Source: a virus
Taxonomy: Duplodnaviria; Heunggongvirae; Uroviricota; Caudoviricetes
IMG/VR virus record: IMGVR_UViG_2585427768_000008
Location: 1 to 22,381 of that record
Strand: one strand, 5' to 3'
Length of the DNA stretch: 22,381 nt
Shown: positions 5,601-18,895 of the stretch, in pieces
Layout: each line of letters starts with the position of its first letter
Numbering within the stretch: position 1 is the stretch's first letter
Translations under genes and position numbers: made by a program
The notes under the pieces: generated by a model
What the model was told of the DNA's origin: nothing
What the model saw: the letters and a program-made list of their open reading frames with translations, nothing else
The model's database searches: none

Positions 5601-8600
5601 AGCCTTCATGTGTACCGCTGACACCACCGGATCACCATTTTTATCCACGGCATCAAGCAGCATCACAACCGCGTTTCTTTCTGTCGCGGAACGGTAAATT
5701 GCATCCGGATCGTGCATCAGTTCCGGTAGTCTCTCGATAACATCCATCGGCACCACATGTTTCACACCATTGGTGGCCTTACGCACAGTGTCGCGGGAGA
5801 TAACCAGCGGCAAATCTGGTGCGCCAAGGTGACGCAATACCGGCGGCGTACGCCCGATGTTTACCGTTAAATCCGTTGAGCGCAGAGACTTCATCATTCT
5901 GGCAAGGTCATCACGATAACGCTCGCCCTCACCTTCCGGCACTTTGAACGGATCAGGCTTACCGCTACGGGAGTACTGAGACGATGCGTCCGCGCCATCC
6001 TCACGCGGCGTGTAACCTTCCCGCACACGCTGGCCTAACGTGCGAATAGTTTCGCGAACAAGTCTGATATCGTTCAGTTCCGTCGGCTTCAGTAACCCCG
6101 TACGACGCAGTACCCCTTTGACCAGGGCAACAACACGCTCCCATGCCGCCACGAATTTAATCGGCTGCTTCTCTGCCATATGCGCCAGAAATTCACCCGC
6201 CTGCACTTCCGGTGATTCCTTACCATAAGACGCATCAACCTTACGCCAGGCTTCACGGATGGTGGCGTTATCACTGTCACGGGTTTTCAGCACGGTCTTA
6301 ATAATCGTCTGATATTCCGCTGGCGTGACTACATGCTCCATTGCATGGTGAATAATCTCGTGACGTAACTTCTCGCGAACGGTCCGCCCGTCAGGGATGT
6401 TATCCGCCACCAGGACAATTTCACGTTTATCCGGACGATAGAACGCGTGCACCTTGCCGTAACCGTCGAATGATTCCCCCGCCAGTGCTTCAGCCTCTTT
6501 CTGTGACTTCACCACGCGGACCTTCAGGTCACTGTCCTTAATGCCACTAATCACGCCACGGGCAACAGCTTCAACCTGCGGGACCGGACTGCCTTTGGCT
6601 TCCGCACTACGGTTAACATCCGAAATCAGATTGCCTTCAGGTGTGCGGGTCACGCCCTTACGGGAATAAAACGCAACTCCCTTGTCCGTCTCACGGGTTT
6701 TCAGTGTTCGGAACAAGTGATCGAATGCCTCACGAATACCGCCATCCAGTTCTGCATTCGTCGGATAAGCGTAGGTGTCCGGCTGTCCATGGTCATCCGC
6801 CTTACGGATATTGACCAGATAATCATTCTCCACGCCAGCCATACGCGCTTTATCCTGAACATAACGCTCAAAGGCTCGCGCCGCCATTTCAACATCCGTT
6901 GACCAGTACGGTTTTGAACGAACGCCATCCAGGCGTTCAGAACGACGCAACATGTCACTGCTGTTAATGGCTTTCATCACGCCTTTAAACGCGTCGTAAA
7001 CCTCCTGACGTACCGGATATTCCGCATCAACATACCTGCCGTCTTTAAATACGCGCCCGGCACGCTGTGCTTCCGTCATATAGTCGCCACCTGACGTGAT
7101 CTTCCCGTCAGTGGAAACATCATAACGACCAAAATAATTATCCAGTGAATGGAACCATTCGTGGGCCAGCGCCCCCGGTCCGTTACCTTTTGTCAGGTTG
7201 ATTGCCACCTCACCCGGCTCATAGTGTGCCGCCGCCTTACCCTTACCACGGGCACCAAAAGCAAGCCCAAGACGACCGTTCAGAGAAAGCGCTTTTGTCG
7301 GCACGTTCAGCACGTCAGCCAGGTCATGCAGCGAGTCATAAGCCCGGTTCAAATCAGCCTGACGACGCGGACTTTCCACATAATTACCAAACTGCACACC
7401 ACGAAAACCAAACGCATCACTGAACTGCTCCGGCGAAACATCCCCCTTGCGGCGTTCTGGTCCGGTACGATCGCGGTTGGTGGCGTTACGCTGCTCCTCA
7501 CGCGAGACTTCACGCAGCGCCTTCACCTGATTAACCAGCTCATCACGATGTGTGCGCACATAATCATGTGCATCACGGGCAGACTCAAAACCGCCCTTCA
7601 GTTTCTGCCTGTTTTTGCCATAACCGATAAAAATGTCGCCACTGGCCTTATGCCGGTACACGTCAAAGGTTATTCTGTCATCAGCAGAGGTTGCTGGCGT
7701 TTCCCTTTCTCTGGAGCCTTGTTCATCGAAATATGCTTTCGCCTTTTTCAGTAACTCATCCCGGCTTTCCGAGAAAAAGAGGTCGCGCCCCTTGCTATCA
7801 CGAAGCGAATACATCATTTGCGGCGGATCGTAACGTTTTCCCCCGACAAACGAATAAACACCGGACCTGACACGATAGCCGGATGCTTTATCAATCTGCA
7901 ATGCAGAAAGCGTACGGAGCAGTTTCCAGGTATCCGACATGCTCCGTAACCCCGGCTTACTGTCCATCATATCAGCCAGTTTCGCTGCCGGAATTTTCCC
8001 CTCCAGCATACCGGCAGTAGCTTCGCGACCGCTTTTAACAATGCTGATCCATTTCTGCATGTTACGGCTTGTTCTGGTGGGAATTTCACTGCGATACAAC
8101 GCCATCATTGCCAGCGTGTCACTATCCACACCTTCTTTTTCCAGACGGGCATAATCCGGCTTTGGAAACAGTTTGCTCAGTGGTTGTGTCGCGTACTCCC
8201 CATCCTCCAGCGTTTTACCCATAGCTTCAGCAAGCTGCGCATAACGGTGTTTTGCCGCGCCCTTAATCTCCTCGCCAAAGTCTTCAATTTTCGCACCACG
8301 CGCCTGCTGGTGAGTGCTCGGTTTATCTACCGGCACCGGCACCTCAGTATCCGGAACATCGGTTATGGTCTGGCGATTATCCCCGGTCTGTCTGCGTGCT
8401 TCTGCCTGCTGTGCCAGTTCCGGAAGGGAGTCACGAACCATACGAGGGAGTGATTCAGGCTGTGGCATATCAACCCCACGCTGACTTTCAGGTGCAGGAA
8501 GACCTTCACGCACTGGTGCTGTGGCGTTCTGCTCATCCGGTGACGGCAGACCACGACGAACTGTTTCGCCCTCCAGTATTTCCCCCTGGCGACCAGCGGC

Positions 8601-10484
8601 ATTTTCCGGTGCCTGCGCACGTCCTTTCTGGAAACTCTGGCCCTTCACCTCACCGGTTGTGGTAAAACGACCACCACGTCCGGCCTGATTTTCATCCGGC
8701 GTACGCGCTACTTCTCCTGGTAACGGATATCCCTGTCCGGGATGAATATCGCCGGGAGCGGGAAGGCGTGGACGCTCAGTTAACTCCTGTGCTGTCGGAC
8801 CGGCATCACCTTCAGCCATCTGGGAACGCACCAGTTCTTCCGCCGTCGGCGCGTTGCCACGAGCAAGACGGGCCTGCACTTCTGTATCATCCCCCGTAAA
8901 ACCACGGAATCGCGGGTCACGCATGAACGCGGGCTGTTCCATCGGATCAGCATCAGTAATACGCTCTCCGTCAGCCAGAGTGTTAATGGTCTCCGTTGCC
9001 ACATCTTCAGAGAACGCAGGATTATCCATTTCAACGGCATACTGATTCTCGCCTTTCTTCACTACGGACGGTTTCAGGCCGGTGGCGCTGGCATTGCGGA
9101 AAACGTCGCTCCCCAGAGCACTTTTTTCATCCGTGAAATAACGGTTGTCCGGACGCACCTTTTCAATGCGTTCTGCTGGTCTGGACGCACCACTCTCGTT
9201 AATTTCAATACGAACTTCATCCGGATCGCGGAACCGCACCGTCGGGTAAATACTCCCGTCGCCATCATCCGCATTTTCCGGCTGTGGCTGTGCCTCCGGT
9301 CTGGCCTCCCGCTGAGGGCGAAGCACATCACGTATTGCCTGTAACTGCTGCTCTTCAGTATCAGTACGCCCTTCCTTCTGGCTGAGTTTTCGGTATTCCT
9401 CAAGCAGTTCAGGGCGCGGCTTCGCCTTCAGCTCATCCATCACCGCCTGTCGCTTCGCCTGTTCATCCAGTTCATTCAACAGCTGGCTGGCGGCTTCCCG
9501 GCGATGAACGGCAGACGTGTCTCCCTCATGTGCCATATCCGCATCAGCATACTGTTCCAGAAGCTGCTCGCGATTCATCCCCTGCATAGATTCACGATGC
9601 TGTGCCACCGGATCAACCGGTTCGGGTTGCGGAGCCGATTCGTCCTGAGGAACGCTTTCAGCCTCACGCATGGCTGCTTCATCTGCCGCCTGACGTTTTC
9701 CACGATATCCGGCAGCCGCACCGAATGGTGCCCCCATTGCAGCACCAAGGGCTGCACCTTCGATCGTTGCGTCAGCCACGCCCTCCCACGGTGACACATC
9801 CATTCCGGCGGTCTCACGCAATGCCGTGTTTTCCTGATAGCGTGAATAGCCACCCTGCGCCGCATTAATCGTCCCCTGTTCCGTGGCATTTCTGACAATG
9901 CCGCTTTTAACGGTCTTCGCCGTGCCCCGCATCGCCAGATTAAGCAACTGAGCATCGCCCAGTTTTGCCGCCATGGCATTCACAGCCAGCAATTCAGGAT
10001 CGGTTGCCAGCTGCGCACGCACCTCATCGGCAACACGCTCTTTTGCCAGGTCCATTTTCTGGCGGTCAGTAAGCTGCGCGTGCTGCGGATCTGCATCAAT
10101 TGACAAAAAGGTCTGCTGAAATTTCGGTGACTTCGCCAGCTCAGAATAATCCGCGTTAAGAACAGCATCTGCCGCTGCCATTGCACTCCGCCCTTGCGCA
10201 CTGACAGTGGAATGGGTGATCAGGCCTGCCTGGAAAAAATCCGGCATTTTTTTATCGACAGCTTCGGCTGCCAGTGCTGTGGCTCTTTCCGGCTGCATCC
10301 CTGCCGCGATGTATTTTTTCTCCAGCCCGGCGGTCAGCACTTTTCGCAGAGTGACATCACCCAGCTTTTTAGTCACACCGCCTGCAACCATATCCGGTAC
10401 AAGCGCACCAATCAGGTTAACTCCACAAGCCTTCGCAACTTCAGGGATGCCGACACCTTTAATCGGCTCATCAAGATTTTGCAT
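2631..10484 (-). CDS. giant multidomain protein (about 2617 aa) with zincin-like HExxH motifs; function unknown, possibly polyvalent-protein-like
   Basis: Uninterrupted 7.9-kb ORF on the minus strand. Preferred start is ATG at 10484 (AAGGA 7 nt upstream); the track start at 10517 has no RBS. HEWFH encoded at 7149-7163 and RHEIIHHAMEH at about 6334-6363. No Walker A or methyltransferase motifs seen. GC content visibly higher than the neighbouring AT-rich operon. Confidence 0.9.
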   Translation of the reverse strand: MQNLDEPIKGVGIPEVAKACGVNLIGALVPDMVAGGVTKKLGDVTLRKVLTAGLEKKYIAAGMQPERATALAAEAVDKKMPDFFQAGLITHSTVSAQGRSAMAAADAVLNADYSELAKSPKFQQTFLSIDADPQHAQLTDRQKMDLAKERVADEVRAQLATDPELLAVNAMAAKLGDAQLLNLAMRGTAKTVKSGIVRNATEQGTINAAQGGYSRYQENTALRETAGMDVSPWEGVADATIEGAALGAAMGAPFGAAAGYRGKRQAADEAAMREAESVPQDESAPQPEPVDPVAQHRESMQGMNREQLLEQYADADMAHEGDTSAVHRREAASQLLNELDEQAKRQAVMDELKAKPRPELLEEYRKLSQKEGRTDTEEQQLQAIRDVLRPQREARPEAQPQPENADDGDGSIYPTVRFRDPDEVRIEINESGASRPAERIEKVRPDNRYFTDEKSALGSDVFRNASATGLKPSVVKKGENQYAVEMDNPAFSEDVATETINTLADGERITDADPMEQPAFMRDPRFRGFTGDDTEVQARLARGNAPTAEELVRSQMAEGDAGPTAQELTERPRLPAPGDIHPGQGYPLPGEVARTPDENQAGRGGRFTTTGEVKGQSFQKGRAQAPENAAGRQGEILEGETVRRGLPSPDEQNATAPVREGLPAPESQRGVDMPQPESLPRMVRDSLPELAQQAEARRQTGDNRQTITDVPDTEVPVPVDKPSTHQQARGAKIEDFGEEIKGAAKHRYAQLAEAMGKTLEDGEYATQPLSKLFPKPDYARLEKEGVDSDTLAMMALYRSEIPTRTSRNMQKWISIVKSGREATAGMLEGKIPAAKLADMMDSKPGLRSMSDTWKLLRTLSALQIDKASGYRVRSGVYSFVGGKRYDPPQMMYSLRDSKGRDLFFSESRDELLKKAKAYFDEQGSRERETPATSADDRITFDVYRHKASGDIFIGYGKNRQKLKGGFESARDAHDYVRTHRDELVNQVKALREVSREEQRNATNRDRTGPERRKGDVSPEQFSDAFGFRGVQFGNYVESPRRQADLNRAYDSLHDLADVLNVPTKALSLNGRLGLAFGARGKGKAAAHYEPGEVAINLTKGNGPGALAHEWFHSLDNYFGRYDVSTDGKITSGGDYMTEAQRAGRVFKDGRYVDAEYPVRQEVYDAFKGVMKAINSSDMLRRSERLDGVRSKPYWSTDVEMAARAFERYVQDKARMAGVENDYLVNIRKADDHGQPDTYAYPTNAELDGGIREAFDHLFRTLKTRETDKGVAFYSRKGVTRTPEGNLISDVNRSAEAKGSPVPQVEAVARGVISGIKDSDLKVRVVKSQKEAEALAGESFDGYGKVHAFYRPDKREIVLVADNIPDGRTVREKLRHEIIHHAMEHVVTPAEYQTIIKTVLKTRDSDNATIREAWRKVDASYGKESPEVQAGEFLAHMAEKQPIKFVAAWERVVALVKGVLRRTGLLKPTELNDIRLVRETIRTLGQRVREGYTPREDGADASSQYSRSGKPDPFKVPEGEGERYRDDLARMMKSLRSTDLTVNIGRTPPVLRHLGAPDLPLVISRDTVRKATNGVKHVVPMDVIERLPELMHDPDAIYRSATERNAVVMLLDAVDKNGDPVVSAVHMKAVRSRLEINKVASVYGTENGKKLKSMEMTGLTLYRREKLSRDNLLHRGLQLPKGEHSYRGSVDKILYPEDIRKGPYYSRTSSLTPEETIASRFVRQMQDKFQVLKAVQENIRKTGGKIDDSNNAYMAEELFHGKAENDLNVMKERYVQPLAKLLADYKIAQADLDEYLYARHAPERNVHIAKINPKMPDGGSGMTNAEAAEIMQRVRNSGKQAQYDRLAGIIDDMLARRREIIREAGLEESGVVDAWQKAYRYYVPLKGQDVDGVVSQPRTGKGFTIGGRESKQAMGRASRAQSPSTQAIQDLSESLIRNRKNEVGNAFLKLVQDNPDKDYWQGFTDDRPDTMRVIAERKDQETGETIREVVERPVPMAMMADRYFTTKKDGKTYYIKLHDPRLMRAMKNMGPETSNAVIRTLGKVNRFLATVNTSYNPEFLVSNFIRDVQTAVMNLKAEQGRSDGKLKELDNLSALAVVKDSRSAMSAVYASLRGKTLTGKGAQWQKVWKEFVEDGGKTGWFNMGDLEGQQKEMDRLVSLAKGGWKGQSIGAWHSFLNLVEDANGAVENALRLSAYKHARDAGLSRQQAASLAKNMTVNFNRRGEQGMLMNSLYMFANASIQGTANLVRTLGHLNGDGPLLERLRWKNLNVPQKIVLAAVGAGYLLGSLNRSVAGEDDDGGNWYDKVPSHVKERNLVIMKSMFGGKAGEYWSIPLPYGYNVFFLLGHTAEGVAAGDLTASRAAGNVVGGILGAFSPIGSETSETLSGALLKNAAPTILRPFANLAMNENFMGAQIYQENMPFGTPKPDSQLGRRSTPEAYKAFAFWLNAFSGGSQYRPGAVDITPESLKFWIDYISGGTGRFISKTTDAAVKSLNGIDIPEQQVPFLGKISGEVMPYADQQKMYDRMTEVAQYHAELKSLTGAERTAFIDENNGKLLMNGLMQDTRKRLKDLRKQRDAIYADSSLSLAQQAAMVKSVERDMKVAVDRFNREYNKKVGVD

Positions 10485-10562
10485 AGGGATATCCTTTTTC
10501 GTACTTTCAGTACGCATTATGATTGAACTGAAAGTTTTTGCAAGTGCTTTAGTATCGTACTC
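10485..10562. promoter_or_regulatory. divergent promoter/operator switch region between giant gene and cI-like repressor
   Basis: Minus-strand promoter TTGCAA (10538-10543), 16-nt spacer, CATAAT (complement of 10516-10521). Perfect 15-bp palindrome CGTACTTTCAGTACG (10500-10514) just downstream of the -10; inverted partial copy ACTGAAAGT (10527-10535). A third CGTAC-N5-GTTCA element (10556-10570) overlaps the cI start. cI has no Shine-Dalgarno; TAGTAT (10550-10555) lies 7 nt before its ATG, suggesting a leaderless transcript as for lambda pRM. Confidence 0.5.
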
Positions 10563-11270
10563 ATGGTTCAGAATGAAAAAGTGCGCAAAGAATTCGCCCA
10601 GCGGCTAGCGCAAGCCTGTAAAGAAGCTGGTCTTGATGAACATGGTAGGGGAATGGCTATAGCCCGTGCCCTTTCTCTTTCGTCCAAAGGCGTTAGCAAA
10701 TGGTTTAATGCTGAGTCTTTACCGCGTCAGGAAAAAATGAATGCGCTTGCGAAATTTCTAAACGTTGATGTTGTTTGGCTTCAGCACGGCACTTCGTTAA
10801 ATGGAGCGAATGATGAAGATACTCTTTCATTTGTTGGCAAATTAAAAAAAGGGTTAGTGCGCGTGGTTGGTGAGGCAATTCTTGGTGTTGATGGTGCCAT
10901 CGAGATGACCGAAGAGCGCGATGGGTGGCTCAAAATTTATAGCGATGATCCAGATGCCTTTGGCCTTCGTGTGAAAGGAGACAGCATGTGGCCCAGAATA
11001 AAATCAGGAGAATATGTACTCATTGAGCCTAACACCAAAGTATTCCCGGGTGATGAGGTGTTTGTCAGAACCGTTGAAGGACACAACATGATTAAGGTTC
11101 TTGGCTATGACAGAGATGGAGAATACCAATTTACAAGCATTAACCAGGATCACAGGCCTATAACGTTGCCTTATCATCAAGTAGCAAAGGTGGAGTATGT
11201 AGCTGGTATTCTGAAGCAATCTCGCCATCTGGATGACATCGAGGCAAGGGAGTGGCTGAAAAGTTCGTGA
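10563..11270 (+). CDS. cI: CI-like prophage repressor (N-terminal HTH, C-terminal S24 LexA-like peptidase)
   Basis: 235-aa ORF. N-terminal HTH-like segment (GMAIARALSLSSKGVSKWFN) and C-terminal GDSMWP serine motif with a downstream conserved lysine (MIKVLG), as in LexA/CI autocleaving repressors. Position and orientation match cI relative to the pL operon. Confidence 0.88.
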   Translation: MVQNEKVRKEFAQRLAQACKEAGLDEHGRGMAIARALSLSSKGVSKWFNAESLPRQEKMNALAKFLNVDVVWLQHGTSLNGANDEDTLSFVGKLKKGLVRVVGEAILGVDGAIEMTEERDGWLKIYSDDPDAFGLRVKGDSMWPRIKSGEYVLIEPNTKVFPGDEVFVRTVEGHNMIKVLGYDRDGEYQFTSINQDHRPITLPYHQVAKVEYVAGILKQSRHLDDIEAREWLKSS

Positions 11271-11330
11271 CTTCATCGTCACATAGCTGGTAACCAGTGG
11301 CCAGAAGAAACGTTTGGGTGAGGAGGATAG

Positions 11331-11672
11331 ATGGCGTTCACTGACCTTGAATATCAAGCGGTCAAAAAAGAAGTTCACCAATTCATTGAAAGCATAAGGC
11401 CGCCTGAACATATCCGCAATGAACTGGATATTGTTTATAGCATCAATGACCAAACGATAGATATCGGCGAACAGCGCCCCGTGTGGCAGGGCAACCCAGG
11501 TGAAACAAACATCCTGCCATCAGCAAGAATCAAGTACATACGTTCTCTGGATAGATGGAAAATCTATTGGATGCGGAAGGATATGAAATGGCATCAGTAC
11601 AGTACTGAACTTTCGCTGACTGATGCGCTTGAGCTTGTGCGTGCTGACCCGGATTGCTGCTTCTTCGGATGA
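11331..11672 (+). CDS. hypothetical protein, first gene downstream of cI
   Basis: 113-aa ORF with strong RBS GAGGAGG before the ATG; same strand as cI and no terminator between them. No recognisable motifs. Confidence 0.6.
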   Translation: MAFTDLEYQAVKKEVHQFIESIRPPEHIRNELDIVYSINDQTIDIGEQRPVWQGNPGETNILPSARIKYIRSLDRWKIYWMRKDMKWHQYSTELSLTDALELVRADPDCCFFG

Positions 11673-11739
11673 GTGAAGAGACGTTTGGATGATGGATGGT
11701 CGCAGAGATGCGGCCTGATTCTAAAATAGGATATAAAAA

Positions 11740-12201
11740 ATGAGAATACTAGGTGTTAGAGCGGCGCCCAAAGTTACATCTTTTGTTGTATATTGCACTA
11801 ATGAGTCTGCACTCAAATGTGTTGATGTTATTAAAATACCTTCGACCTTAGACACACCAGAAAAATTAAAGTATGTGAGAAATAACATCCTCGACATTCT
11901 TAATTTATATAATGTTGAATTAGCTGCCATACGCGTTACTGAATCAAACTCTGATAATCTTAGCATTGACCGCCTTTATATAGAAGCTGTTATTCAAGAA
12001 GCATTTTCAAGCAGTGATGTAAGAAAATATTACACTATTAGAAAATCTGGCATGAAATCATCATTGAACCTAACAGAGATCGAGTATAAAGAAATATTGA
12101 AGTCACACCGCAATATAAATGGAATCGATAATTCTGGTTTTACAACTGAAACAAATGAAGCTGTTTTGGCTGCTCTATCTGCGGAGGTAAGGGGATGCTA
12201 A
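11740..12201 (+). CDS. hypothetical protein, upstream partner of Ser/Thr kinase
   Basis: 153-aa ORF in a markedly AT-rich segment; AGGA upstream of the ATG; 3' end overlaps the kinase start by 7 nt. No recognisable motifs. Confidence 0.6.
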   Translation: MRILGVRAAPKVTSFVVYCTNESALKCVDVIKIPSTLDTPEKLKYVRNNILDILNLYNVELAAIRVTESNSDNLSIDRLYIEAVIQEAFSSSDVRKYYTIRKSGMKSSLNLTEIEYKEILKSHRNINGIDNSGFTTETNEAVLAALSAEVRGC

Positions 12202-13241
12202 CTCCATACAAAAGAGCTGATGTAGAATTCGAATGGATTAGTGATCTAGAAGAACAGGGTTGTTTTTCAAAAGTATATCTGGCTCATGACAGACACCTAG
12301 CTCATGACTTGGTGATTAAAGAAATAGAAAAAAAAGAAAACACTAACCACGACGACTACTTTAATGAAGCAAGGCTTCTCTATAAACATGCACATCCAAA
12401 TATTGTGCAAGTTCAGTATGCTGCTCAATGTGAGAGCAATATCTATATAGCCATGCCATTTTATCATAATGGTTCGCTAAACCAATTAATGAAAAAAAAT
12501 AATCTTACAAGCAGGGAGATAATACGGTATTCCATTCAATTTTTAAGTGGACTTTATCATATACACTCAAAAGGTCTTATGCATTTTGATATAAAACCTA
12601 ATAACATTATGATATCAAACAGAAATGAGGCCATGCTATCTGACTTTGGATTATCTCAGTTAGTCAATGAGGAATCGAGAGCTGCGCCTGAGTTTGGATA
12701 TCATTTTCATGTGCCACCGGAATATTTTTCTTTATCAACAAATGATTATAATTTCACATATGACATATATCAGGCAGGATTAACCATATATAGAATGTGT
12801 GTTGGACATGATAATTTTGAAAGAGAAAGATCTGCATTTAGCACGATTGAACAACTCAGAGAGTCGATAATTAATGGCTGCTATCCATTAAAAGAGTATC
12901 CTCCCCATATACATAAAAAATTAATAACAATAGTGAACAAATGCATTCATGTAGATCCAAATGAAAGATATCAATCCGTACTAGATGTACTAAACGATCT
13001 CTCAGCTATAAGTGATGGCGTTCTTGACTGGCGTCTACAGATGACGAAACCAACTAACGGCACATGCGAATGGCAAAAAAAGTCTGGGGACGCTATACTG
13101 TCTATAGTTTTTGACGCAGAAAATTCGTCTACTACTGGTTTTCGTTTATACGATGATGGGCGGAAAAGGCGTGCTACGAACTTAACAATATCCTCAGGAT
13201 GTACCCCTACAAAACTGTATAGGTTATTAAAGGATAACTGA
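12195..13241 (+). CDS. eukaryotic-like (Hanks-type) Ser/Thr protein kinase
   Basis: 348-aa ORF with GGAGG 7 nt upstream. Kinase subdomain motifs in order: glycine-rich-like loop EQGCFSKVY, VIK lysine, catalytic loop HFDIKPNN (about 12583-12606), DFG (12642-12650), PPE (APE-like), DIYQAG. AT-rich. Confidence 0.85.
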   Translation: MLTPYKRADVEFEWISDLEEQGCFSKVYLAHDRHLAHDLVIKEIEKKENTNHDDYFNEARLLYKHAHPNIVQVQYAAQCESNIYIAMPFYHNGSLNQLMKKNNLTSREIIRYSIQFLSGLYHIHSKGLMHFDIKPNNIMISNRNEAMLSDFGLSQLVNEESRAAPEFGYHFHVPPEYFSLSTNDYNFTYDIYQAGLTIYRMCVGHDNFERERSAFSTIEQLRESIINGCYPLKEYPPHIHKKLITIVNKCIHVDPNERYQSVLDVLNDLSAISDGVLDWRLQMTKPTNGTCEWQKKSGDAILSIVFDAENSSTTGFRLYDDGRKRRATNLTISSGCTPTKLYRLLKDN

Positions 13242-13243
13242 TC

Positions 13244-13408
13244 ATGAAAAAGCGCGAGGAAGTAAGCAAGCTGCCTCGCAGACGTGATGCAGCATTAGCG
13301 GTTCCCTACAAAAAAGATGAGTTCATAAGCCCTTCTGATGACAAAAAATTTTCAAAGGCGAAAAGTTTTACATCTACATCTCTAAAAGATAAATACTTTA
13401 AAATCTAG
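13244..13408 (+). CDS. small basic protein (54 aa), translationally coupled to kinase
   Basis: ATG at 13244, 2 nt after the kinase stop, with AAGGA upstream; stop TAG 13406-13408 directly precedes the terminator. Not in the supplied ORF track (below its length cutoff); read by hand. Confidence 0.35.
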   Translation: MKKREEVSKLPRRRDAALAVPYKKDEFISPSDDKKFSKAKSFTSTSLKDKYFKI

Positions 13409-13434
13409 CCCGGCCTCAGCGCCGGGTTTTCTTT
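13409..13434 (+). terminator. rho-independent terminator ending the cI/kinase operon (tIMM-like)
   Basis: CCCGGC (13409-13414), 6-nt loop, GCCGGG (13421-13426), followed by TTTTCTTT. Confidence 0.7.
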
Positions 13435-13605
13435 GCCTCACGATCCCCCACCTAAAAAAACATAACTCATTGTATTTATTGATGTAACTCGCTAAACCAT
13501 GCAGTTCTGATCCCTGCCGCATAACCTTCATCAGCCACATTTTCAAAAATAAATTTCCTTATATATCAGAATCATACTTCGTAGAGTTAATAAATCACCA
13601 AAATT

Positions 13606-13650
13606 CGTACCAATAGTTCTTGATAATGTCGAACTATTGGTTCACTATTA
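13606..13650 (+). promoter_or_regulatory. candidate pL-like promoter with inverted-repeat operator
   Basis: 11-bp inverted repeat ACCAATAGTTC (13609-13619) / GAACTATTGGT (13631-13641) with 11-bp spacer containing TTGATA (13620-13625, -35-like); weak -10-like CACTAT at 13643-13648. CGTAC-N5-GTTCT at 13606-13620 resembles elements in the cI switch region. Confidence 0.4.
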
Positions 13651-13717
13651 TCGTCATCAGCAGGACGCATTACTCACCAGGGCGGTGAATATACAACGAT
13701 TCGAATATGAATCTACG

Positions 13718-13732
13718 GCGCTGACAAAGCGC
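13718..13732 (+). promoter_or_regulatory. nutL-like boxB RNA hairpin (P22 type)
   Basis: GCGCT GACAA AGCGC: 5-bp stem with GACAA pentaloop, the boxB form I recall for phage P22. Lies between the pL-like promoter and the N-like gene. No convincing boxA found upstream. Confidence 0.6.
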
Positions 13733-13742
13733 AATAACCAAA

Positions 13743-13885
13743 GTGAACTTTGGGGTGTGGTGAAGGGTTCATGGACGGGAATATGTCGCACGTAAAGCGG
13801 CGAGGCCTGTGGGACTATTGCCGAATTGAAGTAGGCCGAAACAGGTCGAAATGGGTCTCCCACCTACCACACCACCAAAGTTCAT
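13743..13885 (+). other. long-range helix in the N-like gene leader (possible RNase III-type processing or translational control structure)
   Basis: TGAACTTTGG (13744-13753) and GTGTGGT (13755-13761) pair with ACCACAC (13867-13873) and CCAAAGTTCA (13876-13885), about 17 bp with one bulge, enclosing about 105 nt. The helix ends 1 nt before the AGGAGG Shine-Dalgarno (13887-13892). Confidence 0.4.
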
Positions 13886-13897
13886 CAGGAGGTCTAT

Positions 13898-14998
13898 ATG
13901 ACACGCAGAACTCAGTTCAAAGGCAATTCACGTTCTCGTCGTCGTGAGCGTTTAAAGGCAAAGGCATTAGCTAACTGCGTACTGGCCCGCGAAGAAGCAA
14001 TAAGTTCAGAAGTATTACACCGCCCTACTCTAAGCAGAGCGCAGATTCAGGCTAAAGGTACTCACGAAACGCCTGAGCGCATAGAAGACGCTAAGCCAAT
14101 TAAGTTCATGGCACAGGACGTGATCTGGCAACAGAAAGAATACAGACGCAATCTGGAGCGAGCAGCCATTGTGTACGCGAATGAGTTTGGACATAAGCAA
14201 CCAGAAACTGGTGTATGTCTTCCAAACGTAGCCATTTACGCGGCAGGCTACCGGAAATCAAAACAACTGACGGCGAGGGGATTGATGACCACGCCTTCAG
14301 TTTTGCCGCAAAAGTTATGGCGTCCGCTTGCAGAGATTAAAAACTTCGTTGAAAAAATGCCTGATGGAGTTCGCCTTACGGAAGTTACTAAAAAAGTTAA
14401 GACATTTGCCGAACTGTCAGGAAAGGAGAGAAACCAGCTCATAGATTTTATCGATAAACGGGAAAGCATCATTGTATTTAAGGTCAGAAAAGAAGGTTCT
14501 GGTAACGGAGTAACCTTTTTCCGCCACAAAAAATATGGATATCCCAAACGGGAAGGAAACGTCACAATCACTAAGGACCTTCAATCAAAATTATGTACCA
14601 GATGCGGGCAGACAAAATCAGTCAATGATTTTTATTCAGATGCCAGCAAGCGTGACGGGAGAGCCATTTATTGCAAGAAGTGCGAATCTGCAATGAAACG
14701 CTCACGCAGAAAATGCAACAAATTAATTCTGCAACAACAGGAACCTGAAATGAATAACCTCAAAGCAGTTTCACCTTCACCAGAAATACTCAGAAAACAG
14801 GCTGAAGAATTGCTGAAAGCCGCCGAAATTGCGGAGAAAAAACGCCAGGAAGATGATGCATTCAACAAAAAACTTGCGCCCTTAAAACTTGAAATCCTTC
14901 AGGCCGCCGGAAAAATGCAGCTTAAACTGGACGAATTCATCGACTGTATGGATGAAATGAATAAAGCAGTTCAGAAGCTTAAAGAGCTGACCGCCTGA
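13898..14998 (+). CDS. N-like transcription antiterminator with arginine-rich N-terminus, extended by a CxxC...CxxC zinc-ribbon and coiled-coil C-terminal region
   Basis: 366-aa ORF, AGGAGG 5 nt upstream. N-terminus KGNSRSRRRERLKAKALAN resembles the arginine-rich motif of the P22 N protein (recalled as GNAKTRRHERRRKLAIER) and pairs with the P22-type boxB upstream. CTRCGQ...CKKCES motif near residue 250. Much longer than typical N proteins. Confidence 0.6.
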   Translation: MTRRTQFKGNSRSRRRERLKAKALANCVLAREEAISSEVLHRPTLSRAQIQAKGTHETPERIEDAKPIKFMAQDVIWQQKEYRRNLERAAIVYANEFGHKQPETGVCLPNVAIYAAGYRKSKQLTARGLMTTPSVLPQKLWRPLAEIKNFVEKMPDGVRLTEVTKKVKTFAELSGKERNQLIDFIDKRESIIVFKVRKEGSGNGVTFFRHKKYGYPKREGNVTITKDLQSKLCTRCGQTKSVNDFYSDASKRDGRAIYCKKCESAMKRSRRKCNKLILQQQEPEMNNLKAVSPSPEILRKQAEELLKAAEIAEKKRQEDDAFNKKLAPLKLEILQAAGKMQLKLDEFIDCMDEMNKAVQKLKELTA

Positions 14999-15848: not shown

Positions 15849-16023
15849 AAGTGAATTTTGTGATGCGGTGAATGCGGCTATGCGCACGCGGAACAGTTAA
15901 ACCGACAGGATGTCACGGAAAGTCATCGTCCCCTGACCCGGCGTTAGTTGTTAACTGGTTAACGTCACCTGGAGGTACCAGGCACCGCATCAACAAAGTT
16001 CATTTGTGAAAATGGAGATAATT

Positions 16024-16245
16024 ATGATTGTTCATCACTTCGGAACTGATGAAATACCACGTCAGTGCGTGACGCCTGGCGATTATGTTCTTCATGAAGG
16101 TCGGACATATATCGCTTCAGCAAACAATATTGAAAAGAGAAAACTCTATATTCGTAACTTCACAACAAAAACATGCATTACCGACTGCATGATTAAAGTT
16201 TTCATCGGGCGCGATGGCTTACCCGTAAAAGCAGCGTCGTTGTGA
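16024..16245 (+). CDS. hypothetical small protein
   Basis: ATG at 16024 with GGAG 6 nt upstream (the track start at 16006 is GTG without an RBS). 73 aa. Confidence 0.5.
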
Positions 16246-16328
16246 CGAGTAATAAAATACCCCTTCCATATCTGTAACAGACAAGCCGAAATAAAACCGC
16301 ATTAATTATCAATCACGGAAAAATCAAA

Positions 16329-16715
16329 ATGAAAGAACTTGCGCAAAATGAAATATTTTCCGAAACCAGTCCTGATGCAATAAATGAACTCAAAGAAATT
16401 GCAGAACGCATCAGTAAAATATGCAAAGAATACAAAATCGACTTTGTATTTTCTTTTTCAGTGCTTACAGAAGTTGGAAATAACGAATATAAGGACAGTC
16501 GTTTTGTTTTATGTGGGTTAAATGGCAAAACACCAAGCCCATATATTCATGCTGCACGTGAAGTTGTCAGAAGCAACATTGGAGTACAACAAATCCATAC
16601 ACTTGCACAGGCTCTTGAGTTTGCAAGAGAAAATTCTGAGTGCGACTGCCCTGAATGCCAGCACGAAAAGGGAAAAACAACTCACAAAACAGCAAACCAG
16701 GCAACCTTCCACTGA
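16329..16715 (+). CDS. hypothetical protein with C-terminal CDCPEC cysteine cluster
   Basis: 128-aa ORF, weak RBS, AT-rich; C-terminal SECDCPECQHEKGK. Confidence 0.5.
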   Translation: MKELAQNEIFSETSPDAINELKEIAERISKICKEYKIDFVFSFSVLTEVGNNEYKDSRFVLCGLNGKTPSPYIHAAREVVRSNIGVQQIHTLAQALEFARENSECDCPECQHEKGKTTHKTANQATFH

Positions 16716-16720
16716 AATAA

Positions 16721-16750
16721 AAATCCGGCAGCGCAGGCTACCGGATTTCT
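16721..16750. terminator. palindromic hairpin, possible weak terminator
   Basis: AAATCCGG (16721-16728), 12-nt loop, CCGGATTT (16741-16748), then CT; lies right after the stop of the 128-aa ORF. Confidence 0.3.
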
Positions 16751-16822
16751 CCCTGCGTCACCGTATTCGGAGAAATCAGACAAAGGGCCGCTAATTCTAA
16801 TCCAGCCAGAGGTTTAAATACA

Positions 16823-18895
16823 ATGAGCGCTGATAAACAGACTTTTGCACTACACTGCGAAGCAAAAAACGATAAAGTCAGAAAACGCCTTGGCATCAAA
16901 GGCGGTTTTTTCTGGACCGAGGCCAGAAAACTTTCTGTCGCAGTTTCCCGCTGCATTGCAGCCATGGACGATGCAGGCTACGACGAGGATGATTTCAAAA
17001 AACCCGTTCGCGTAAATTTCCCCGTCGTGAATGACCTTCCACCGGAAGGCGTGTTTGATACTGAATTCTGCAACCGCTATGAAAAAGGCGGGGAAGATGG
17101 CATCACCATGATGGCTATATCCTTCAATGACAACATCAACGGTGAAGATGCCACAACTGCTGGCGATGACAACGATGACCCGGACGGAACTATTCCGGAT
17201 GATGTGGAGAAAAGCGAATCCCCGGACAGCGACGATGACTGTTCTGAGTGTGAAATTCCCGTCGCCACTCTGAGCCTTACTCATCGCTTCCTTCACCTCT
17301 TCTTCTTCAGCAAGGATGAAGATGGAAAATACCGGCATCACGCCACACCAGAACAACGCAATAACGTGATCCGTATGGAGATGGACACAGAGGACAGTTA
17401 CCTTCAGAGCCTGCTTACTGCTGTGCGCGCCGCACATCATGAACTGGATAAACTGACGAACTATCACCTTAGTCGCCTGGCTGAATCTGTAGGGAAAGCA
17501 TTCCCCCACTCTGCAAATCATCGCATCAGCCCGGCTGAATTCGACAAGTTCATTTCCACCTGGATGAAAACTGACTACCTTGATCAGGGCCTGCTGACAA
17601 AAGAATGGCAGAACGGAAATTATGTTTCAGGCATTACCCGTACGCCTTCCGGTGCTAACGCTGGCGGCGGAAATCTTACCGATCGTGGTGAAGGATTCAA
17701 ACATGATAAGACATCACTCGCACGAGATGTAGCCACCGGCGTTCTGGCCCGTTCAATGGATGTGGATATTTATAACCTGCACCCAGCACACGCAAAACGC
17801 GTTGAAGAAATCGTGTCAGAGAATAAGCCGCCCTTTTCTGTTTTTCGCGACAAATTTATCGCCATGCCCGGTGGGCTGGATTATTCCCGCGCCATTGTGG
17901 TGGCTTCCGTGAAAGAAGCACCAATCGGCATTGAGGCCATCCCGGCACGCGTGACTGAATATCTCAACAAAGTGTTGACCGAAACCGATCACGCTAACCC
18001 GGATCCGGAAATCGTGGAAATTGCCTGCGGTCGCTCATCAGCACCGATGCCGCAGCGCGGAACAGCAGAAGGAAAACATGGCGATGAAGAAAAGCAACAA
18101 GCATCGGACACAATGGCTAATGAACAGGCAGCGCCTGAATCAGTGGAAGAAATTCCAGTTAAACATAATGAGGACACGCAATCACTGGAAAATGTCTCAT
18201 CTGTAGAAACGAAATACCAGGAACTGAGGGAGGAACTCAATAAAGCCAGGGAAAACATCCCCCCAAAAAATCCAGTCGATGCCGACAAATTACTGGCTGC
18301 CTCGCGTGGAGAATTCGTTGAAGGCATCAGTAACCCTGCTGATCCGAAGTGGGTGAAGGGGATCCAGACTCGCGACACTGAGGACCAGAATCAGTCCAAA
18401 GTGGAACAAATTGCCCCAGAAGCGGGACAAAACAGCCCGGATACGCAACAAAACGGGTCAGAAGAGCAACAGCCAGGGCCAGTAGCGCAACCGGAGCTGG
18501 AAAAAAACTGCCGCGTCTGTGGTCAGACTGGCGGGGGGAACTGCCCCGACTGTAGTGCGGTAATGGGCGATAGCACTTACACAGAAACTTTTGGAGAAAA
18601 TGACGCCGCTGATGGAGAAGACTCAGCACAAACTGAGGAGAAGATCATTCAGGAAAACTCTGTTGATGCCGCTCAGGAGGGCGAAACCGTTGTTCAGAAC
18701 GAGCCAGGCAGTGATACGTCCGGCGATGACGCCAATTCTGAGCCAGTAACTCTCGACTGGAAAAGACAGCTCGTGATTGCCGCCGTCTATGGTTTGTGCG
18801 CCAACCCCGCATGTATAGCCACAGCGCCAGCAATCCCTGATATCGCCATCATGATTGCCAACAGGCTTGAAAATTTCGGAGGTGATAAATCATGA
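16823..18895 (+). CDS. large acidic hypothetical protein (690 aa) with zinc-ribbon motif, translationally coupled to gam
   Basis: Long ORF whose stop overlaps the gam start (ATGA at 18892-18895). Strongly acidic D/E-rich tracts (e.g. [30 protein letters not shown]), CRVCGQ...CPDC motif, hydrophobic C-terminal tail. Confidence 0.8.

What the first reader, a model, noticed from the sequence alone, without database searches (positions are those of the whole stretch)
11700..13440. Sharp compositional break: AT-rich cassette embedded between cI and the pL region
The segment carrying the 153-aa gene, kinase and small ORF is conspicuously AT-rich (runs of A/T, codons ending in A/T), while flanking cI, the N-like gene and especially the giant gene are GC-balanced to GC-rich. 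This is the pattern of a horizontally acquired moron cassette and supports treating the kinase genes as a transferable accessory unit rather than core phage functions.
Basis: seen in the sequence. Interest (0 to 1): 0.4.

Follow-up and report, generated by a model that had tools for sequence, protein, structure and literature searches.

The report
Known phage 933W Stk kinase cassette
The AT-rich stretch is real and is the already described accessory cassette of Shiga-toxin phage 933W, which carries the Stk protein kinase where phage lambda carries rexAB; what I could not find described is that the kinase always travels with a RuvC-shaped partner gene.

Summary
Observation confirmed. GC is 0.361 for 11700-13440 against 0.499 for the rest of the window, the lowest of any window of that size.

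Window 10418-14281 is 99.4% identical to the immunity region of phage 933W: cI, a DUF3024 gene, a 153-aa gene, stk, a 54-aa gene, terminator tM, pL/nutL and N. stk and the 54-aa gene are 100% identical in nucleotide sequence to 933W.

Comparison with relatives puts the AT-rich cassette at 11694-13408. The DUF3024 gene is a separate module of ordinary GC.

The slot between cI and tM is variable. Relatives carry rexAB, an NYN nuclease, a PD-lambda-2-like system or unknown genes there. One E. coli prophage has authentic lambda cI followed by this cassette in place of rexAB.

Papers read here say stk is transcribed with cI from pRM and aborts HK97 superinfection.

One addition I did not find in the papers searched. 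In 10 of 10 other contexts, spanning three phyla, a homologue of the 153-aa gene sits directly upstream of an Stk-type kinase, often with a small third gene. It has a RuvC fold, but invariant arginines replace catalytic D7 and E66.

Side notes: cro is fused to the giant gene by a large deletion, and N has lost its stop codon.

The parts
10419..10484 (-). Remnant of cro (codons 1-22) fused in frame to the giant LPD5/LPD38 gene. Context only, not part of the cassette.
   Evidence: Homology to 933W starts at 10418 and homology to the giant gene of FORC_069 ends at 10424. The 933W cro annotation maps its ATG to 10484.
10500..10570 (.). oR1-oR3 with divergent pR and pRM. pRM (10528-10555, + strand) is the promoter of the operon that contains the cassette.
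   Evidence: Transferred from the 933W annotation (L001 3083-3153; window coordinate = locus coordinate + 7417) at 99.4% identity.
10563..11270 (+). cI repressor of 933W immunity type, 235 aa.
   Evidence: Pfam Peptidase_S24 4e-16 plus HTH_3. One nucleotide differs from 933W cI.
11331..11672 (+). DUF3024 gene, 113 aa, GC 0.459. A separate cargo module spanning 11294-11693.
   Evidence: Pfam DUF3024 2e-31 and PADLOC candidate PDC-S43 7e-42. It is retained in Stx2_EH0787, where the kinase cassette is replaced. It also follows the repressor in P22-like phage SE1. It is absent from the Klebsiella and Proteus cassettes.
11694..13408 (+). The AT-rich cassette as delimited by homology breakpoints, GC 0.357.
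   Evidence: Breakpoints against Stx2_EH0787 (11693/13409), AU5Stx1 (right breakpoint 13409) and lambda (right breakpoint about 13409). Composition. One nucleotide difference from 933W in 1715 bp.
11740..12201 (+). 153-aa protein with a RuvC fold (933W L0083/ST933Wp23; 'res' in phi24B). Probably not a nuclease. Conserved partner of the kinase.
   Evidence: AlphaFold2 pLDDT 92. Best Foldseek match is T. thermophilus RuvC, TM 0.80, E 1e-9. No Pfam hit. R7, R65, E68 and E140 are invariant across phyla. It lies directly upstream of an Stk-type kinase in 10 of 10 other contexts.
12195..13241 (+). stk: Hanks-type (eukaryotic-like) protein kinase, 348 aa, with a C-terminal domain of about 75 aa. Its start codon overlaps the end of the 153-aa gene by 7 nt.
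   Evidence: Pfam Pkinase 2e-46. 100% nucleotide identity to 933W stk. K42, E58, D132, K134, N137, DFG 150-152 and P175-E176 are invariant. AlphaFold2 pLDDT 85.5, with a beta-strand-plus-helix domain at 290-347.
13244..13408 (+). 54-aa basic protein, the third gene of the cassette.
   Evidence: phrog_4063 2.5e-39. Weakly conserved counterparts of 53-60 aa follow the kinase in Klebsiella, Proteus, Elizabethkingia and Bacillus phage SPbetaL7.
13407..13432 (+). Intrinsic terminator tM/tImm that ends the pRM operon. It starts the conserved 13409-13482 block shared with lambda.
   Evidence: Stem-loop of 8 pairs followed by TTCTTTG. 933W annotates tM at the equivalent position. About 90% identical to the sequence after lambda rexB.
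13898..14998 (+). N antiterminator (127 aa in 933W and ES5) fused to the next ORF (237 aa) by a stop-codon mutation. Right-hand neighbour, context only.
   Evidence: Pfam N_peptide 1.6e-12. TGA changed to GGA at 14279-14281 relative to ES5 and 933W.

Best explanation
The AT-rich block at 11694-13408 is the three-gene accessory cassette of the phage 933W immunity region. It consists of a 153-aa RuvC-fold protein, the Stk protein kinase and a 54-aa basic protein. It occupies the slot between the repressor gene and terminator tM where lambda carries rexAB.

Shown by sequence: the cassette is co-oriented with cI, no terminator lies between cI and tM, and the first two genes overlap. Its low GC marks it as foreign to the phage backbone. 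The same roughly 35% GC recurs in the Klebsiella copy and matches the surroundings only in the Proteus copy, whereas distant homologues have the GC of their own surroundings.

From the literature: in a lysogen the cassette is transcribed with cI from pRM. Stk has little or no activity in uninfected cells, is activated when phage HK97 infects, and aborts that infection.

Inferred: the RuvC-fold protein is a non-catalytic regulatory or sensing partner of the kinase, and the small protein is a third component.
For: - Identity: 99.4% over 3.86 kb to 933W and 38 other Stx-phage records, with the same gene order. stk and the 54-aa gene have no nucleotide differences from 933W.
- Composition.
- Operon structure: the only + strand terminator downstream of the cI start codon, up to pL, is at 13407-13428. 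Promoter-like sites are no more frequent than in shuffles, 9 found against 10.1 expected. There is a 7-nt overlap between the 153-aa gene and stk.
- Variable slot: rexAB in lambda, DUF3024 plus NYN in Stx2_EH0787, a PD-lambda-2-like trio in BP-4795, unknown genes in PhiR12_4 and Lambda_2G7a, almost nothing in AU5Stx1. Lambda cI followed by this cassette in strain LZHX12.
- Literature: the kinase is cotranscribed with cI and aborts HK97 infection (PMC3564112). [quoted passage not shown]
- Partner linkage: 10 of 10 contexts. These are a Klebsiella Rac-like prophage, two Proteus prophages, Terasakiella, a metagenome contig next to Wadjet JetC/JetD, a JGI metagenome, Bacillus phage SPbetaL7, a Pseudomonas island with Abi_2 and an integrase, an Acinetobacter prophage tail region, and an Elizabethkingia island with an LlaJI-type restriction system and ArdA. 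Homology of the partners is confirmed. In the phage collection both genes occur in the same 39 Stx-phage records and 2 SPbeta records.
- Foreign origin: GC of the cassette in its various hosts.
Against: - The two primary papers on Stk (Tyler and Friedman 2004; Friedman et al. 2011) could not be read here. The abortive-infection mechanism and its HK97 trigger therefore rest on citing papers and my own recollection. I do not know whether stk alone was shown to be sufficient; if it was, that would weaken the partner hypothesis.
- No experiment here shows that this copy is expressed or active. The prophage is defective.
- The replacement of catalytic residues in the 153-aa protein rests on a fold match plus a weak sequence alignment (hhalign probability 1.3%). 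The protein keeps several invariant acidic residues (E68, E82, E87, E140), which could form a different active site.
- Low GC could partly reflect selection, for example H-NS silencing, rather than origin alone.
Confidence: 0.9

Rival explanations
1. The 153-aa gene is what databases call it, a working RuvC-type Holliday junction resolvase serving phage recombination. It only happens to lie next to stk, so the cassette would be two unrelated cargo genes.
For: The RuvC fold is clear: TM 0.80 to T. thermophilus RuvC bound to a Holliday junction. PHROG and RefSeq annotate it as RuvC-like. The protein keeps invariant acidic residues E68, E82, E87 and E140.
Against: - Arg is invariant at the positions that align with catalytic D7 and E66 (ILGVR against ILGID; AIR against AIE), from enterobacteria to Bacillus and Bacteroidota.
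- There is no sequence-level match to Pfam RuvC or to RuvC entries in the PDB.
- It lies in the lysogenic pRM operon, not the recombination module, and its phi24B homologue 'res' had earlier been shown to be expressed in lysogens.
- It overlaps, or lies within 3 nt of, the kinase gene in all 10 other contexts. These include non-phage defence islands, where a phage resolvase has no obvious role.
Confidence: 0.1
2. The cassette is a toxin-antitoxin-like pair. Stk is a growth-arresting toxin kept silent by the RuvC-fold protein, by the 54-aa peptide, or by both. The system stabilises the prophage (addiction), and phage exclusion is only a by-product.
For: Translationally coupled small-gene/large-gene pairs resemble toxin-antitoxin layouts. 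[quoted passage not shown] Neighbouring slots carry toxin-antitoxin-derived defence systems, such as the PD-lambda-2-like trio in BP-4795. The cassette is retained in this defective prophage.
Against: Nothing here shows toxicity or neutralisation. The reported phenotype is activation by a specific infecting phage. This reading overlaps with the main explanation rather than excluding it, since abortive-infection systems are often toxin-antitoxin-like.
Confidence: 0.2
3. The low GC reflects function rather than horizontal origin. For example, AT-rich DNA might be selected for H-NS binding or for low expression inside the repressor operon.
For: AT-rich genes in E. coli are commonly bound by H-NS (general knowledge, not tested here). 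The Klebsiella copy keeps the same low GC in a host of much higher GC.
Against: Distant homologues of both genes have the GC of their own surroundings: 0.53 in the contig next to Wadjet and 0.44-0.46 in the JGI contigs. Low GC is therefore not a property of the family. The enterobacterial clade's roughly 35% GC matches Proteus-type surroundings. The homology breakpoints coincide with the compositional edge on the left.
Confidence: 0.1

Closest known systems
Phage 933W immunity-region accessory genes L0083/ST933Wp23, stk and ST933Wp21 (Stk, the eukaryotic-like tyrosine/serine-threonine kinase that excludes HK97)
   Same: Same genes. stk and the 54-aa gene are 100% identical in nucleotide sequence and the 153-aa gene differs by 1 nt. 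Same order, same flanks (cI, DUF3024, tM, nutL, N), same terminator.
   Different: Here the host prophage is defective: cro is truncated and fused to a late gene, and N has lost its stop codon. Nothing differs in the cassette itself.
Lambda rexA-rexB
   Same: Same slot (between cI and tImm) and same orientation. The terminator block directly after the last cargo gene is about 90% identical. Both are transcribed from pRM in lysogens and both exclude other phages by an abortive route. Direct swap seen in E. coli LZHX12: lambda cI followed by this cassette.
   Different: The proteins are unrelated. Rex is not a kinase (general knowledge of lambda; not tested here). The phages excluded differ: T4 rII mutants for Rex, HK97 for Stk (PMC3564112).
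Staphylococcal Stk2 and E. coli PD-T4-6 (single-gene Ser/Thr-kinase phage defences)
   Same: All are Hanks-type kinases used for abortive infection. Stk2 is activated by a phage protein (PMC13276650). PADLOC PD-T4-6 profiles match the kinase domain at 1e-37.
   Different: The match covers the kinase domain only (residues 20-276) at modest scores, so these are not orthologues. They are described as single genes, whereas the Stk family has its own C-terminal domain and a constant RuvC-fold partner. The partner has no PADLOC v2 profile.
RuvC Holliday junction resolvases, and RuvC-fold pseudo-nucleases such as the TEFM C-terminal domain
   Same: Same fold: TM 0.72-0.80 to bacterial RuvC. TEFM also appears among the matches.
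   Different: No sequence-family membership. Arg occupies the positions of catalytic D7 and E66. It always occurs as a stand-alone protein of about 150-165 aa next to a kinase.

Membership tests
933W-type Stk cassette (lambdoid pRM-operon kinase) | Orthology to 933W Stk | tested here: met
   No nucleotide differences over the 1047-bp stk gene, and 100% amino-acid identity in 39 Stx-phage records.
933W-type Stk cassette (lambdoid pRM-operon kinase) | Intact Hanks-kinase catalytic motifs: VIK lysine, alpha-C glutamate, HxD-K-xx-N loop, DFG, (A)PE | tested here: met
   K42, E58, H130-D132-K134-N137, D150-F151-G152 and P175-E176 are invariant in 30 homologues. Pfam Pkinase 2e-46.
933W-type Stk cassette (lambdoid pRM-operon kinase) | Location downstream of cI, same strand, ahead of tM, with no intervening terminator | tested here: met
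   Gene map. The only + strand terminator downstream of the cI start codon is at 13407-13428. Matches the 933W annotation.
933W-type Stk cassette (lambdoid pRM-operon kinase) | Kinase activity triggered by HK97 infection, leading to abortive infection | not testable with these tools
   Known only from citing papers (PMC3564112, PMC3681748). The primary papers are not held.
RuvC Holliday junction resolvase (for the 153-aa protein) | RuvC / RNase H-like fold | tested here: met
   pLDDT 92. Foldseek E 1e-9 and TM 0.80 to 4ld0, and TM 0.72 to E. coli RuvC 1hjr.
RuvC Holliday junction resolvase (for the 153-aa protein) | Catalytic acidic residues (E. coli D7, E66, D138, D141) | tested here: not met
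   R7 lies at the end of strand 1 (ILGVR against ILGID), and R65 at the end of strand 4 (AIR against AIE). Both are invariant across phyla. E140 may correspond to D141.
RuvC Holliday junction resolvase (for the 153-aa protein) | Sequence-family membership (Pfam RuvC, or PDB RuvC by profile search) | tested here: not met
   No Pfam hit at E <= 0.01. No RuvC among PDB sequence hits at E <= 10. No NCBIfam hit reaches its curated cut-off; the single weak match (EMYY-motif lipoprotein, 16.5 bits against a cut-off of 100) is unrelated.
Moron (Juhala/Hendrix sense: inserted gene with its own promoter and terminator) | Present or absent between otherwise homologous neighbours in related phages, with deviant composition | tested here: met
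Moron (Juhala/Hendrix sense: inserted gene with its own promoter and terminator) | Own promoter and own terminator | tested here: inconclusive
   Promoter-like sites are not above chance, and the terminator is the shared tImm block also found after lambda rexB. The papers read here place stk under pRM (PMC3430580).
PD-T4-6 / MADS MAD6 kinases | Full-length match to the family profile | tested here: not met
   Only the kinase core matches. NCBIfam MAD6 scores 122 bits against a cut-off of 460. The PADLOC PD-T4-6 match covers residues 20-273 at 1e-37.

The most novel reading that the evidence does not exclude
Stk is not a single-gene defence. It would be the effector of a conserved three-gene system made of a RuvC-fold protein whose metal-binding acids are replaced by invariant arginines, a Hanks kinase with a private C-terminal domain, and a small basic peptide.

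The system is spread from Bacillus SPbeta-like phages through Proteobacteria to Bacteroidota, in prophage cargo slots and defence islands. The RuvC-fold partner has no profile in PADLOC v2.

In this reading the pseudo-RuvC is the sensor or regulator. For example, a dimer might recognise branched phage DNA or the phage trigger protein and bring two kinase molecules together for activation.
Probability: 0.35. Interest if true: 0.55.

Novelty: already known. Interest (0 to 1): 0.25.

Why it matters
As flagged, the finding adds nothing new. It rediscovers the stk accessory cassette of phage 933W, which sits in the lambdoid repressor-to-pL cargo slot.

Two points are still useful. First, the slot is a compact, precisely bounded exchange site. 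Within a handful of relatives it holds RexAB, Stk, an NYN nuclease, a PD-lambda-2-like system and several unknown genes, so it is a cheap place to look for new defence genes. Second, the kinase has an obligate-looking RuvC-fold neighbour with an altered active site, and databases label this neighbour a Holliday junction resolvase. If it turns out to be the sensor or regulator of Stk, it would explain how a phage-encoded kinase stays silent until another phage infects, and the annotation would need correcting.

Tried and rejected
- Primary papers. I tried to read Friedman et al. 2011 and Tyler and Friedman 2004 by DOI, PubMed id and PMC id. None is held, so the mechanism is cited second-hand.
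- Literature on the kinase/RuvC pair. Searches for RuvC + kinase + anti-phage + Stk, for HK97 + gp41 + tyrosine kinase, and for DUF3024 found nothing relevant.
- Sequence-level link of the 153-aa protein to RuvC. The profile search against PDB sequences gave only chance hits. hhalign against an E. coli RuvC sequence recalled from memory gave 1.3% probability. I used it only for the register of the first 64 residues, which agrees with the predicted strands.
- Fold search of the Stk model. It returned only generic eukaryotic kinases and said nothing about the C-terminal domain.
- Source of the window. The 34-nt cro/giant-gene junction has no exact match in GTDB representative genomes or in IMG/VR, and no complete E. 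coli genome or phage record spans it.
- Rejected: that DUF3024 belongs to the AT-rich cassette. It has normal GC, stays when the cassette is replaced, and is absent from the Klebsiella and Proteus cassettes.
- Rejected: that Stk is an orthologue of PD-T4-6 or MAD6. Only the kinase core matches.
- Technical: several fetched loci never appeared in the Python sandbox, so breakpoints for BP-4795, Lambda_2G7a and lambda come from BLAST tables and annotations rather than my own alignments.
Full report
**1. The observation.**
A sliding-window profile shows one deep GC trough at about 11700-13400, with GC of 0.33-0.39. For the coordinates given, GC is 0.361. The equal-sized flanks are 0.476 on the left and 0.438 on the right, and the rest of the window is 0.499 (z = -6.9, -4.6 and -11.0). 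No other 1741-bp window is as low. Third-codon-position GC is 0.27 for the 153-aa gene and 0.28 for the kinase. It is 0.41-0.49 for cI, the DUF3024 gene and N, and 0.56 for the giant gene.

The left edge is sharp. The right edge is gradual, and it merges into the AT-rich pL/oL region.

**2. What it is.**
Window 10418-14281 is 99.4% identical to the immunity region of Shiga-toxin phage 933W and to 38 other Stx-phage records. On the + strand the 933W annotation gives, in order:
- pRM and cI;
- a DUF3024 gene;
- a "RuvC-like" gene of 153 aa;
- stk;
- a 54-aa gene;
- terminator tM;
- nutL and N.

stk and the 54-aa gene have no nucleotide differences from 933W, and the 153-aa gene has one. Pfam finds a protein kinase domain at 2e-46. 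All catalytic motifs are invariant among 30 homologues. An intrinsic terminator begins at the stop codon of the 54-aa gene (13407-13428). No other + strand terminator lies downstream of the cI start codon before it, and promoter-like sites are no more frequent than in shuffled sequence.

**3. What is known about function.**
The primary papers were not available. The papers that cite them say the following:
- the 933W kinase is cotranscribed with cI and aborts infection of the lysogen by HK97 (PMC3564112);
- Stk is activated on HK97 infection and has little or no activity in uninfected cells (PMC3681748);
- stk is under pRM control and is expressed only in stable lysogeny (PMC3430580);
- in phi24B, stk and "res" keep being expressed when the prophage is induced, and "res" had earlier been shown to be expressed in lysogens (PMC4651098). 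"res" is the 153-aa gene.

**4. Is it an exchangeable cassette?**
Yes. Relatives that share the 933W-type cro-cI segment, the tM-pL-N segment or both carry different cargo between them:
- The Stx2_EH0787 group keeps DUF3024 and then has a 285-aa NYN-domain protein. Homology to the window stops at 11693 and resumes at 13409.
- PhiR12_4 has one unknown 341-aa gene, with breaks at 11293 and 13400.
- Lambda_2G7a has an unknown 299-aa gene.
- BP-4795 has three genes. The first two match the A and B components of the defence system PD-lambda-2, and the third matches the third component of PD-T4-9. PD-lambda-2 is described in bioRxiv 10.1101/2022.05.12.491691.
- AU5Stx1 has almost nothing, only a 47-aa ORF.

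In lambda, the 71 bp directly after the rexB stop codon are about 90% identical to window 13409-13482, which directly follows the 54-aa gene's stop codon. In E. coli LZHX12, a repressor 235/237 identical to lambda cI is followed by DUF3024, the 153-aa gene, the kinase and the 54-aa gene in place of rexAB.

The slot therefore holds two modules here: DUF3024 at 11294-11693 and the AT-rich cassette at 11694-13408. The cassette occurs in 225 of 5426 complete E. coli genomes, and 223 of those carry it at full length.

**5. Origin of the low GC.**
The homologous cassette in Klebsiella prophages sits behind an unrelated 130-aa repressor. It is again a trough, 0.36-0.37 against flanks of 0.50-0.56. 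In Proteus prophages its GC of 0.345 equals the surroundings. Distant homologues have the GC of their own contigs, 0.53 and 0.44-0.46.

Low GC is thus a property of the enterobacterial clade of the cassette and not of the protein family. This fits spread from a low-GC lineage such as the Morganellaceae. That last step is inference.

**6. The part not found in the papers searched.**
The 153-aa protein has no Pfam, PADLOC or meaningful NCBIfam match. Its model is confident (pLDDT 92), and the best structural matches are bacterial RuvC resolvases (TM 0.80, E 1e-9).

The residue at the end of strand 1 is an invariant Arg where RuvC has catalytic D7 (ILGVR against ILGID). The residue at the end of strand 4 is an invariant Arg where RuvC has E66 (AIR against AIE). 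Both hold from E. coli to Pseudomonas, Acinetobacter, Elizabethkingia and a Bacillus phage. The alignment that fixes the register is weak, so this is a likely loss of the canonical active site, not a proven one.

In every other context examined, a homologue of this gene lies immediately upstream of an Stk-family kinase of 344-352 aa (cut short by the contig end in two of the contexts). The two genes overlap by 4-8 nt or are separated by 3 nt. The contexts are:
- a Klebsiella Rac-like prophage;
- two different Proteus prophages;
- Terasakiella, beside an integrase;
- a metagenome contig beside Wadjet JetC/JetD;
- a JGI metagenome;
- Bacillus phage SPbetaL7 (genes 73-72-71);
- a Pseudomonas island with Abi_2 and an integrase;
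- an Acinetobacter prophage tail region;
- an Elizabethkingia island with an LlaJI-type restriction system and ArdA.

A small gene of 53-60 aa follows the kinase in at least four of them, and it is weakly similar in the two copies I aligned, from Klebsiella and Proteus.

In the phage collection, both genes hit the same 39 Stx-phage records and the same 2 SPbeta records. The family of the small partner has 446 representative clusters in 1.84 billion proteins, almost all stand-alone proteins of 150-165 aa.

I infer that this protein is a partner of the kinase, either a regulator or a sensor, and not a recombination enzyme. I could not check whether the primary Stk papers already tested it.

**7. 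Verdict.**
The object is the known 933W Stk cassette in the lambdoid slot that holds rexAB in lambda. Novelty is "already known", and interest is low. There is a modest lead in the constant RuvC-fold partner.

**8. Seen in passing.**
- Homology to 933W begins at 10418, inside cro, and homology to the giant LPD5/LPD38 late gene ends at 10424. The first 22 codons of cro are therefore fused in frame to about codon 187 of a gene that is 2784 aa in its native form. This junction is absent from all collections searched. It implies deletion of the whole replication, lysis and morphogenesis region, so this is a defective prophage that keeps the cI-stk operon.
- The N stop codon is mutated from TGA to GGA, fusing N to the next ORF.
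- A second AT-rich trough lies at about 15900-16900.

Noticed in passing
window 10418-10424 (ORF 2631-10517, - strand): The first 22 codons of cro are fused in frame to about codon 187 of the giant LPD5/LPD38 late gene, which is 2784 aa in E. coli FORC_069. The two homologies overlap by 7 nt (TTAACTC). This implies deletion of cII, O, P, Q, lysis and morphogenesis genes, giving a defective prophage that keeps the cI-stk operon. No complete E. coli genome, phage record, GTDB representative genome or IMG/VR contig has this junction.
   Followed up: partly
window 14279-14281 (ORF 13898-14998): The stop codon of the N antiterminator is TGA in 933W and E. coli ES5 but GGA here. N (127 aa) therefore runs into the downstream 237-aa ORF to give a 366-aa reading frame.
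   Followed up: yes
window 11294-11693 (gene 11331-11672): The DUF3024 gene (PADLOC candidate PDC-S43) lies directly after the repressor here, in Stx2_EH0787 (followed by an NYN nuclease) and in the P22-like Salmonella phage SE1 (followed by a ParA-like ATPase). It looks like a constant repressor-proximal gene ahead of a variable second cargo. No paper in the library mentions DUF3024.
   Followed up: partly
window 15883-16900: A second AT-rich trough (GC below 0.40). It covers a Kil-like 79-aa ORF (16006-16245) and a 128-aa ORF of unknown function (16329-16715).
   Followed up: no
window 13655-14100: The nutL-N segment is 98.9% identical to phage HK97, the phage that 933W Stk is reported to exclude. 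The oL/pL segment just upstream (13483-13654) is not shared with HK97 or with lambda.
   Followed up: no
L003 1934-2959, L006 4483-5382, L002 2403-3260: The same cI-to-tM slot in PhiR12_4 and Lambda_2G7a holds single genes of 341 and 299 aa with no Pfam or PADLOC match above the curated score cut-off. In the Stx2_EH0787 group it holds a 285-aa NYN-domain protein. All three are candidate undescribed prophage defence genes.
   Followed up: partly
L027 3062-4820 (Bacillus phage SPbetaL7, genes 73-72-71): A Bacillus SPbeta-like phage carries the same three-gene arrangement: a RuvC-fold protein of 167 aa, a kinase of 350 aa that is 39.5% identical to Stk over 95% of its length, and a 60-aa ORF. The module is therefore shared between Firmicutes and Proteobacteria phages.
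   Followed up: partly
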